Shown here piece by piece: positions 1 to 3,000 of a stretch of 61,343 nucleotides of DNA. Positions within the stretch are counted from its first letter, which is position 1. Every line of letters starts with the position of its first letter. The position numbers are program-made. Origin of the DNA: Escherichia phage P8983. The stretch lies in the sequence record HG792103.1; one strand, 5' to 3'.

Positions 1-3000
1 GTTTCAACATGTCTAAGGATATGGTTTATCATTTTGAAAAATATAATTTTATTTCATCCTCCTGGTCACTTTGGGGCACGTCTGGGGCACGGGCATTAAG
101 GACATTATTCAACATGGCAACTTGAGTCACGCTGCACTCAGGCATCCATGCACCATAAACATTGTAGACCATGCTGGCGCTGGAGTGCCCCATCTGTGAT
201 GCAATAAATGTCGGGTTTGCTCCGGCAGATAAAGCCCAGCACGCATAGGTATGGCGTGACTGATACGCTTTACGGGATCGGATACCCGCTCTTTTTATTG
301 CTGAATCCCATGTCGCTCCGATGGAGCTTACCGCGTAGTTAATACCAGCCTTGTGATTCTTGCGAACGATTTGCGGACAGAAAACAAAAGTGCACTCGTG
401 CAAAATTGTTCTTCCGTACTCGCGTAATTGAACAGTGATCTGATGCTGCCTGCTAAGACGAGTAAGCATCGCCTGGTTTTTAAGTGCTTCAATTGCTGGT
501 GCCAGAAGATGTATAATATGCAACTGAGTCACGCTGCACTCAGGCATCCATGCACCATAAACATTGTAGACCATGCTGGCGCTGGAGTGCCCCATCTGTG
601 ATGCAATAAATGTCGGGTTTGCTCCGGCAGATAAAGCCCAGCACGCATAGGTATGGCGTGACTGATACGCTTTACGGGATCGGATACCCGCTCTTTTTAT
701 TGCTGAATCCCATGTCGCTCCGATGGAGCTTACCGCGTAGTTAATACCAGCCTTGTGATTCTTGCGAACGATTTGCGGACAGAAAACAAAAGTGCACTCG
801 TGCAAAATTGTTCTTCCGTACTCGCGTAATTGAACAGTGATCTGATGCTGCCTGCTAAGACGAGTAAGCATCGCCTGGTTTTTAAGTGCTTCAATTGCTG
901 GTGCCAGAAGATGTATAACCCGGTTAGTGCCTGCGTCGGTCTTTGGTAGCGTAAAATCACCTATTTTTGTAAAATTTCGTCGCACTGTTATCGTGCCAGC
1001 TTTCAGGTCGATATCCTCCCATGCAAGTGCGGCAATTTCACCGTGTCGCATCCCTGTAAAAACAGCCACTGTCCAGAGGTTTTTGGTCTGTTGATGATGG
1101 CAGGCATCAATGAGACGGCTAAACTCATCTCTGGTCAGTGGATCCGGCACTGGTTTTGATTTCCTCAGCGGTGTTATTGAATTAAACGGGTTTTTCTCCA
1201 GATACCCGTTTTCGGCGGCAAAGCTGAACATTCCGGCTGTTGTTGTCATGTAATAGTTCACTGTGGGTACGGTTCTTCCTTTTCGGGACGTGCTGGTTTT
1301 CCTGCTTCCCTTTTCCCCGGTCAGTAAATCTTTCCTGATAAACAGCAGATCTTCTTTTGTAATCGATGACGCCAGCCTGCCAGGACCAAGCCTCGGTAGC
1401 ATATTTTTCATCACTGATTGATAACGATTTAAGGCGTTACTACTGATTTCCATTGCTTTCAGAGTAAGCCATTTCTGTGCCAGTTCACCGACGGTGATAT
1501 CTTTTTTTACCAGGCCAAATAGCTTCAGGTTAGGTGAGTCAGGGAATCGCTCGGCATAATCAAACGTTCCCGTTCTGATTGCAAAGCAGACAGAAGCCCT
1601 TAACTCACCAGCGATCTTTCTGTTTTTCGGAGTATCGGGCACGCGAAGATTTTCGCGCACTCGTTTACCCCTGTACTTAAACGTTATTCGGAGTTTTCCT
1701 CCGTGATTTTCAACGCCGGCTGGATAGGCTGAATTCGCCATTGTTCCTCCTGCGTCCAAGAGCACGCTCAGGTTATACTCTTATGGACAAGAATTAAACA
1801 TCCTGAGATGGTAAGGGTTGGTTTTTGATCCAAGTGTTGATGGTAGGAAGGTGATAGAGACATTCGCTGTTTTTCTTTGGCGTTCCGTCGGGGGCGATTT
1901 GTTTATATTCTCTGCCGTTCATCCACGCACTGTCCCTGGCGCGTAATATTGTTCCTTTTCTCAGGCCTGTTACAGCCATTAAAAGCTCCAGTGTTACCCA
2001 TTCATTCGCATTTATCTGTACAACAGGTGTGATGACTGGCTGAATGCCATGGTTATGTTGGTTTACTAACTCGCGCATAAGTTGCCTCTGCATGTGTAAG
2101 AAAAAACCGCCCGAAGGCGGTTGTCAGTTGATTGATGTACGGCGCATTTTTCGAAGGCTGGCAATATGCTTTTCCTTCTCAATTTCCGCTTTAATCATAT
2201 GCAGTTCGTTGTGCTCGATTCGCTCAAATTCTTCATTAAATGCACTAATTGAAGTGGCTCTGGTTCTGCCGTCGAGCCTTCGGTAGATCACCTGAGTCAG
2301 AGTTACCTTGCATATTTCTACCGGATAGTTGTTGGCATCAACGAAAGACTGCCCGCGCTGGATCAGGACGAACACTGGTTGTATTCCTTGAGTGCCATAT
2401 CATAAACACGGCATGCCGAGAGGTGTGTTGTAGTCAACGTCGTTCGTATCCTGAAAAGTCCATGTGTTGTGACGGTAACTTCCGGGGCTTTGAGTTTCAC
2501 TGCATCAACGATATGCTGATGTTTGCGCCTTTCGAATATAGAGCTGGATATAACCACACTTGCTGTTAAACCGTAACTTTCAAATGTGATTTTCATGTCA
2601 TTATCCTCGCAGTTAGCCGGGCAACAAAAATAAATAATGTTGTTCCTGCGAATAACAGGATACCGCCCGTCATTAGAGAAAGGAAAAACAATATTAATGT
2701 ACGCGGGTTGTTTCTCAAAATATTCTCTCTGTGATTCGCTCACTCTGACAATTCGTTGATCAAGTCACGGTATTTATTCAGTTCTTGCAACGCCTTACAT
2801 GCACCCTCCCATCGTTTCTGTTTCCGCCCGGCGCGGCGCGCTTCTTTCCGTGATTTACGTAGCAGGTCACCTATAATGTTGTGCTGCACTGGCTGCACTG
2901 GGGCGATATTTGGTTTTTTGTCCACTTCCCTTGCAACTGCCTGCCAGATGCCATTTTTTACAGTTACTACCCCCTGGTTTTTTAACTTCCATAGAGTGTC

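What the first reader, a model, noticed from the sequence alone, without database searches (positions are those of the whole stretch)
115..918. Perfect in-frame 402-bp tandem duplication inside the integrase gene
About 393 bp (124-516) is repeated with no mismatch at 526-918, offset exactly 402 bp, so the integrase frame stays open and the protein gains a second copy of 134 aa (HLLAPAIEALKNQ...MPECSVTQ). The duplicated block appears to cover much of the catalytic region, so the product is either a non-functional integrase (prophage locked in) or a protein with two catalytic modules. Zero divergence between copies argues for a very recent event or an assembly artefact.
Basis: seen in the sequence. 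Interest (0 to 1): 0.7.

Follow-up and report, generated by a model that had tools for sequence, protein, structure and literature searches.

The report
Integrase duplication: probable assembly artefact
The 402-bp in-frame repeat inside the integrase gene of this Shiga-toxin phage record is really in the deposited sequence, but it is found nowhere else and is most likely the untrimmed overlap of the two ends of a circular assembly, not biology.

Summary
The repeat is real in the sequence. Bases 123-516 equal 525-918 exactly (394 bp, offset 402), separated by 8 bp (TATGCAAC). The integrase ORF stays open: 570 aa instead of 436.

The window is the GenBank deposit of Escherichia phage P8983 (Stx2a phage of E. 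coli O104:H4, Germany 2001). Removing bases 517-918 makes it identical to the sibling deposit P13803 at 60,940 of 60,941 positions.

No other sequence has the junction:
- 85 related phage records
- 217 complete E. coli genomes carrying this integrase
- IMG/VR and JGI metagenomes
- 120 family proteins, all 428-439 aa

The 570-aa product is recorded only from this deposit.

The junction reads as [bases 1-516] followed by [bases 113 onward], with three errors in the first ten bases of the second piece (C>T, GG>G, TT>T). The true overlap is therefore 404 bp, and the open frame is an accident of two lost bases.

The record's right end carries the attP-type base, not the attR base of real lysogens, so the "proviral" layout was made in silico from a circular sequence.

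Best explanation (about 0.85): a linear contig of circular phage DNA had redundant ends that were abutted and then rotated. A real strain-specific duplication is not excluded (about 0.1). If real, the second copy would be an incomplete half-domain, not a second catalytic module.

The parts
29..1741 (-). Integrase gene as deposited (570 aa; CDL18890.1 'phage integrase [Escherichia phage P8983]'). The single-copy gene in all relatives is 1311 bp / 436 aa.
   Evidence: Pfam gives Arm-DNA-bind_2 at residues 7-70 and Phage_integrase in two stretches. P13374, P13803, P13771 and P14437 annotate int at 29..1339.
123..516 (.). Copy A of the perfect 394-bp repeat. On the coding strand this is the second copy in the protein (I410-Q540) and is followed by the native C-terminal tail.
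517..524 (.). 8-bp junction filler TATGCAAC. It is a degraded copy of native 113-122 (CATGGCAACT) with C>T, GG>G and TT>T. It encodes L-H-I at the protein junction.
   Evidence: alignment of 517-532 to 113-130. (BLAST breaks the window into 1-516 and 520-end, which map to P13374 1-516 and 117-end). (the only gap in that piece is the T at 122).
525..918 (.). Copy B of the perfect 394-bp repeat. It is the first copy in the protein (I276-Q406), contiguous with the native N-terminal part.
113..122 (.). Native sequence that the filler imitates. Under the artefact model this is where the original linear contig began, so the real overlap is 113-516 (404 bp).
1..12 (+). Left end of the record: att core GTTTCAA plus phage-arm bases CATGT.
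   Evidence: 933W annotates 1-7 as the attL core.
61332..61343 (+). Right end of the record, GTTTCAACATGT. The base after the core (C at 61339) is the phage-arm (attP) base. Real lysogens have T (GTTTCAATATGTCCGTACATGG). This shows the record was laid out from circular-form sequence.
   Evidence: One search shows a true attP join in L020 that equals the window's right end plus its left end.
1794..2093 (-). Excisionase gene upstream of int. It is unaffected and was used as a probe for contexts elsewhere.
   Evidence: in 10 distinct contexts the neighbouring int is always 436 aa.

Best explanation
The duplication is a finishing artefact of the P8983 deposit, not a feature of the phage. Phage DNA in circular (attP) form was assembled de novo into one linear contig. 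Its two ends both covered integrase bases 113-516, the usual terminal redundancy of a circular molecule and about one long read in length. The ends were abutted instead of merged, and the circle was then cut at the att core to mimic the proviral layout of P13374/933W. That places [1-516] directly in front of [113-end]. The first ten bases of the former contig start are low quality (one substitution and two single-base losses in GG and TT). This turns a 404-bp overlap into a 402-bp insert and by accident keeps the reading frame open, so annotation produced a 570-aa 'integrase'. Shown here: the structure of the junction, the uniqueness of the junction, the attP-type right end, and the identity of the rest of the record to P13803. 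Inferred: the assembly history itself.
For: 1. Deleting 517-918 makes the window identical to sibling deposit P13803 at 60,940 of 60,941 positions. The one difference is the att-flank base.
2. BLAST splits the window into 1-516 = reference 1-516 and 520-end = reference 117-end. Bases 517-532 equal native 113-130 with C>T, GG>G and TT>T.
3. The rest of the deposit is clean. All five other differences from P13374 (two SNPs, three T-run lengths) agree with the closed genome NCCP15648, and 48 kb align to it without a gap. The three errors next to the junction are therefore a local end effect.
4. The right end reads GTTTCAA-CATGT. Closed lysogens have GTTTCAA-TATGTCC at attR. A genuine attP join in contig L020 reads exactly as window end plus window start. 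Sibling deposit P13771 shows the same attP-type base although its host's closed chromosome (2009EL-2050) has T. These records were therefore laid out in silico from circular sequence.
5. The junction is absent from every record returned:
- 85 phage records
- 219 records / 217 complete E. coli genomes
- IMG/VR
- JGI metagenomes
6. The 570-aa product occurs on one contig of 61,343 bp, which is this record. The 436-aa form is on at least 1000 contigs. No gene with the 570- or 578-aa product exists among 153 billion gene positions.
7. The best 120 family relatives are 428-439 aa and none spans the insert.
8. The breakpoints fall inside predicted secondary-structure elements (strand 274-277, helix 404-417, low confidence), as expected for arbitrary contig ends rather than a domain-wise event.
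Against: No raw reads or assembly log could be examined, so the assembly history is inferred. Short-read draft assemblies would collapse a perfect 402-bp tandem repeat, so its absence from drafts is weak evidence. None of the complete genomes searched is known to be strain CB8983/HUSEC041. The insert length being a multiple of three is a 1-in-3 coincidence under this model. Two partial proteins from other draft assemblies end within a few bases of the two repeat edges (P0007 and P0009). This is unexplained, although P0009's end coincides with an allelic SNP at base 122.
Confidence: 0.85

Rival explanations
1. A real, recent tandem duplication exists in the prophage or phage stock of strain CB8983. 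An illegitimate recombination or template switch between the AAC at 111-113 and the AAC at single-copy 515-517 duplicated 404 bp. Error-prone synthesis or later mutations at the joint (C>T, -G, -T) brought it to 402 bp and restored the frame. The product is an integrase with an intact catalytic domain up to Q406, an extra half-domain (second R, H, Y), and then the native 30-aa tail.
For: The sequence is in a curated deposit and was annotated as one CDS. The insert is in frame. A 3-nt microhomology (AAC) exists at the 404-bp spacing (sequence). Zero divergence fits a recent event. Nothing searched here is known to come from the same strain.
Against: The joint needs three extra changes within 10 bp while 788 bp of repeat carry none. 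Two separate -1 events are an unlikely route to restoring a frame. The junction is absent from every related phage and complete genome. The record shows independent signs of in-silico circular-to-linear handling. The breakpoints cut predicted strand 274-277 and the C-terminal helix (low confidence). This phage group is reported to share the wrbA integration site.
Confidence: 0.11
2. The 394-bp segment is a recurrent repeat or polymorphism in natural populations. The same duplication would then be present but collapsed or broken in short-read assemblies of other isolates, which would explain contigs that end at both repeat edges.
For: P0007 (275 aa, two accessions) ends at ...TNRV, 1-3 nt from edge 918|919. 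P0009 (405 aa) ends at ...CSVT, 0-2 nt from edge 122|123. P0002 is frameshifted in the CCC run at 919-921.
Against: None of 217 complete genomes has it. Twenty exact look-ups for the expected unit-only or partner fragments found nothing. P0009's end sits next to a natural allelic SNP at base 122 (2013C-3181 allele), which by itself can fork an assembly that holds two int alleles. With 13 partial proteins listed, one landing near each edge by chance is roughly a 1% event, and it was noticed post hoc.
Confidence: 0.03

Closest known systems
Terminal-redundancy artefact of circular genome assemblies (untrimmed overlapping contig ends joined head to tail)
   Same: The two copies are perfectly identical and head to tail. 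There is a single joint with degraded sequence on one side only. The record was demonstrably rearranged from circular form (attP-type end). The feature is absent from every relative.
   Different: Such overlaps usually sit at the ends of a record. Here the overlap is internal because the sequence was rotated to start at the att core. The assembly log and reads were not available to confirm this.
Integrase of Stx phage 933W / P13374 (wrbA-specific tyrosine recombinase, 436 aa; Arm-DNA-bind_2 + Phage_integrase)
   Same: Outside the insert the gene is identical to the P13374/P13803 int and differs from the 933W int at 7 bases of the first 1400. It has the same neighbours (xis, att core) and the same domains.
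   Different: 134 extra residues (I276-Q406 plus LHI) that no other member has.
Genuine microhomology-mediated tandem duplications in bacterial genes (RecA-independent slipped misalignment)
   Same: Head-to-tail repeat of a few hundred bp. A possible 3-nt microhomology exists at 404-bp spacing.
   Different: Genuine events give a clean joint. This one has an 8-bp imperfect filler that needs one substitution and two deletions.

Membership tests
Tyrosine recombinase / lambdoid phage integrase | Phage_integrase catalytic domain (PF00589) above Pfam's threshold, plus an N-terminal arm-type DNA-binding domain | tested here: met
   PF00589 scores 88.7 bits (cut-off 27.1) in two stretches. PF12167 scores 89.7 bits at residues 7-70.
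Tyrosine recombinase / lambdoid phage integrase | Catalytic signature R...K...(H/Y)-x-x-R...H...Y | tested here: met
   R232, K267, Y359-x-x-R362, H385 and Y395 are invariant in 31 relatives. They align to the corresponding motifs of XerA and Tn1549 Int. Only R362, H385 and Y395 (with Y359) lie in the repeat; their second copies are R496, H519 and Y529.
Tyrosine recombinase / lambdoid phage integrase | Placement next to the att core and an excisionase gene | tested here: met
   The att core is at 1-7, int at 29-1741 and xis at 1794-2093.
Tyrosine recombinase / lambdoid phage integrase | Family-typical length and single catalytic domain | tested here: not met
   The deposit encodes 570 aa. The best 120 relatives are 428-439 aa, and the 134-aa insert is unique. 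This concerns the deposited form only.
Assembly artefact: untrimmed terminal overlap of a circular contig | The copies are identical, and the record equals a relative once one copy is removed | tested here: met
   (one difference in 60,941 positions against P13803).
Assembly artefact: untrimmed terminal overlap of a circular contig | The joint is an abutment of two sequence ends, with end-type errors confined to it | tested here: met
   The rest of the record agrees with a closed genome at every checked indel.
Assembly artefact: untrimmed terminal overlap of a circular contig | The record is derived from circular sequence and re-linearised | tested here: met
   attP-type base at 61339.
Assembly artefact: untrimmed terminal overlap of a circular contig | Raw reads support only one copy (no junction-spanning reads, 1x depth) | not testable with these tools
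   No read data are accessible.
Genuine tandem gene-segment duplication | Clean joint explained by microhomology, without filler | tested here: not met
   There is an 8-bp filler. A clean AAC joint requires assuming three further changes.
Genuine tandem gene-segment duplication | Independent observation in another assembly, genome or read set | tested here: not met
   no second occurrence. Caveat: short-read drafts would collapse it, and no genome of the same strain was identified.

The most novel reading that the evidence does not exclude
The duplication is real in the Stx2a phage of the 2001 German O104:H4 isolate. The phage would still integrate at wrbA with an integrase carrying a tandem second copy of its Tyr-bearing half-domain. 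The frame would have been rescued by two single-base deletions at the joint after an out-of-frame 404-bp duplication. That would be a natural example of a tyrosine recombinase tolerating a 134-aa internal repeat.
Probability: 0.06. Interest if true: 0.4.

Novelty: not a real feature. Interest (0 to 1): 0.1.

Why it matters
Mainly as a data-quality flag. GenBank HG792103 (phage P8983) and its protein CDL18890.1 / UniRef A0A0P0ZHR1 propagate a 570-aa 'integrase' that probably does not exist. It seeds a protein cluster of its own and could mislead comparative studies of Stx phages of the O104:H4 lineage, for example by suggesting a 'locked-in' prophage in the 2001 precursor strain. If the duplication were real, it would bear on how much structural insult a tyrosine recombinase tolerates. 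It would also bear on the mobility of the Stx2a phage in the HUSEC041 lineage, but the evidence points the other way.

Tried and rejected
- **Junction peptide search.** A 101-aa junction peptide searched against 5.8 billion proteins returned only distant fragments covering at most 62% of the query. It did not even retrieve the identical single-copy clusters, so it says little.
- **Exact look-ups of 20 predicted partial products.** These covered the unit alone, unit plus LHI, and C-terminal pieces starting at residues 269-281. None exists in the collection.
- **AlphaFold2.** Both the native-type protein and the 570-aa product gave pLDDT 30-50 in the catalytic domain (shallow alignment, about 70% identity). 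Only the secondary-structure strings were used, with caution, and no fold search was run.
- **Literature.** No paper held mentions the duplication. Beutin et al. 2012 (PMC3457275) is not held, and Beutin et al. 2013 (IJMM) was not looked for.
- **Templated origin of the filler.** The joint 17-mer occurs only once in the window even with 3 mismatches.
- **Second int allele as source of the filler.** The divergent 2013C-3181 allele differs at bases 116, 119 and 122 but does not match the filler.
- **Sequence quality of the deposit.** I considered that homopolymer differences from P13374 marked a poor-quality deposit. This was rejected: the window agrees with a closed genome, so the P13374 record is the odd one.

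Full report
**Observation**

The window carries a perfect direct repeat: bases 123-516 equal 525-918 (394 bp, no mismatch, offset 402). Tandem Repeats Finder reports period 402, 2.0 copies, score 1597. Eight bases, TATGCAAC (517-524), separate the copies.

The repeat lies inside the minus-strand integrase ORF. The ORF runs 29..1765 from the first GTG, or 29..1741 from the ATG. Because 402 = 3 x 134, the frame stays open.

**What the window is**

The first 2100 bases match 86 Stx-phage records at 99% identity or more, but they always map onto 1698 bases. The window starts and ends at the same att-core positions as P13374.

An exact look-up identifies the 570-aa product as CDL18890.1, 'phage integrase [Escherichia phage P8983]'. 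It is seen on a single contig of 61,343 bp, which is the window's length. Two papers list P8983 as HG792103.1, from strain CB8983 (O104:H4, human, Germany 2001). That accession has been withheld from the searchable phage collection.

**Uniqueness**

- A query spanning the joint (440-600) always splits into two pieces that map in swapped order onto one copy. This holds in 85 phage records and in 219 records from 217 complete E. coli genomes.
- The single-copy gene aligns as one piece in those genomes.
- The 36-mer across the joint is absent from IMG/VR and from JGI metagenomes.
- No gene with the 570- or 578-aa product is on record among 153 billion gene positions. The 436-aa protein is on at least 1000 contigs.
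- The neighbouring excisionase occurs in 14,055 blocks of that collection. In ten distinct contexts the adjacent int is always 436 aa.
- The best 120 relatives in a 5.8-billion-protein search are 428-439 aa. In an alignment with 31 of them, the 134 residues form an insertion unique to the window.
- The sibling deposits P13374, P13803, P13771 and P14437 all annotate int at 29..1339.

**Anatomy of the joint**

BLAST against P13374 resolves the window into 1-516 = reference 1-516 (100%) and 520-end = reference 117-end. In the second piece, the only indel near the start is the loss of T122.

Aligning 517-532 (TATGCAACTGAGTCAC) to native 113-130 (CATGGCAACTTGAGTCAC) shows one substitution and two single-base losses in GG and TT, followed by perfect identity. 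So the record reads as [1-516] followed by [113-end] with a noisy first ten bases.

The underlying overlap is 404 bp, which would be out of frame. The 402-bp in-frame length comes from the two lost bases.

Elsewhere the deposit is clean. Its two SNPs and three T-run lengths that differ from P13374 all agree with the closed chromosome of NCCP15648, to which 48 kb align without a gap. Removing 517-918 makes the window identical to P13803 at every position but one.

**Evidence that the record was laid out from a circle**

The one remaining difference from P13803 is C versus T at 61339, five bases from the right end. Real lysogens have GTTTCAA-TATGTCCGTACATGG at attR, the wrbA side. This is seen in NCCP15648 and 2009EL-2050. 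The window instead has GTTTCAA-CATGT, which is the phage left arm.

A draft contig with a genuine attP join (L020) reads ...CTTCATGGTTTCAACATGTCTAAGG..., exactly the window's right end followed by its left end.

The sibling deposits P13771 and P14437 share the attP-type base. This is despite the closed chromosome of P13771's host (2009EL-2050) having T. So these 'proviral' records were produced by cutting circular-form sequence at the core.

A linear de novo contig of a circular molecule typically has redundant ends. Abutting them and rotating the circle puts the redundancy inside the record, which is the structure seen here.

**Protein consequences if the duplication were real**

By alignment to XerA and Tn1549 Int, and by invariance across 31 relatives, the catalytic residues are R232, K267, Y359-x-x-R362, H385 and Y395. 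The repeat contains only the last four positions, with second copies at R496, H519 and Y529. R232 and K267 remain single. The second copy is therefore an incomplete half-domain, not a second catalytic module.

The breakpoints fall in the strand following the Lys hairpin (NRV|IHL) and in the helix after the Tyr helix. This rests on the secondary structure of low-confidence AlphaFold models. Such positions fit arbitrary breakpoints rather than a domain-wise event.

The depositing group describes the O104:H4 Stx2a phages as alike in restriction profile and chromosomal integration site (PMC4178420). From my own recollection, Beutin et al. 2012 report that the 2001 strain's phage lysogenises K-12 at wrbA; that paper is not held.

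**Unexplained residue**

Among 13 partial proteins in the 90% identity cluster:
- P0007 (275 aa) ends at ...TNRV, 1-3 nt from edge 918|919.
- P0009 (405 aa) ends at ...CSVT, 0-2 nt from edge 122|123.
- The cluster representative P0002 is frameshifted in the CCC run at 919-921.

If other isolates carried the repeat, short-read assemblies might break there. However, twenty exact look-ups for the matching fragments found nothing, and no complete genome has the repeat. P0009's end also abuts a natural allelic SNP at base 122, which can fork an assembly that holds two int alleles. I could not fetch those contigs. I treat this as probable coincidence, but it is the main reason some probability stays on a real event.

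**Verdict**

| Explanation | Probability |
|---|---|
| Untrimmed 404-bp terminal overlap of a circular assembly, abutted and rotated | about 0.85 |
| Real strain-specific duplication | about 0.11 |
| Recurrent natural repeat | about 0.03 |

Interest is low. The useful outcome is a flag on HG792103 / CDL18890.1. A PCR across int, or mapping reads from the same strain, would settle the question.

Noticed in passing
window 1-61343 vs HG792102.1: Apart from the 402-bp insert, the P8983 deposit (human O104:H4, Germany 2001) is identical to P13803 (bovine O2:H27, Germany 2011) at 60,940 of 60,941 bases. The closed O104:H4 genome NCCP15648 differs by 16 SNPs plus an extra ~0.9-kb segment. Either the phage is remarkably conserved or one record was built with the other as a guide.
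   Followed up: partly
window 61332-61343; L013, L014 (ends of HG792104/5): The deposits P8983, P13771 and P14437 end in the attP-type GTTTCAACATGT. P13374, P13803 and phiON-2011 end in the attR-type GTTTCAATATGT. The closed chromosome of P13771's host has the T form.
   Followed up: yes
window 42636-42784 (and 42753-42915): The tail-fibre gene contains collagen-like (G-x-y) tandem repeats of 45 bp, 3.3 copies. P13374 and the 2011 outbreak genomes are one 45-bp unit shorter. Six complete genomes share the window's length exactly. This is natural copy-number polymorphism.
   Followed up: partly
window 9359, 23618, 45554: Three T-run lengths differ from the P13374 reference record. The window's versions match the closed genome NCCP15648. 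In P13803, which has the window's run lengths, ORF19 and ORF67 are annotated longer, each reaching across the neighbouring ORF (ORF18, ORF68). The reference record HE664024/NC_018846 probably carries homopolymer errors.
   Followed up: partly
proteins P0007, P0009, P0002 (cluster of CDL18890.1): Partial integrase products from other draft assemblies end within a few bases of both repeat edges. One Logan-derived product is frameshifted in the CCC run at window 919-921. Partner fragments were not found.
   Followed up: partly
L020 (GCA_003255495.1, QFTA01000038.1) 4148-4686: A draft E. coli contig has int directly followed by the phage's giant right-end gene across an attP join. This suggests excised circular phage DNA or a tandem lysogen in that isolate.
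   Followed up: no
window 4411-4698, 12723-12956, 13604-13891: Three dispersed copies (88-94% identical) of a 230-290-bp segment lie in the antirepressor/ORF6N-type genes. NCCP15648 carries an additional copy of the ORF6N gene.
   Followed up: no
H170, NZ_CP027587.1 (strain 2013C-4974) 1071004-1072031: In this complete genome the match to int stops at base 1028 of the query, so the integrase gene is truncated at its 5' part.
   Followed up: no
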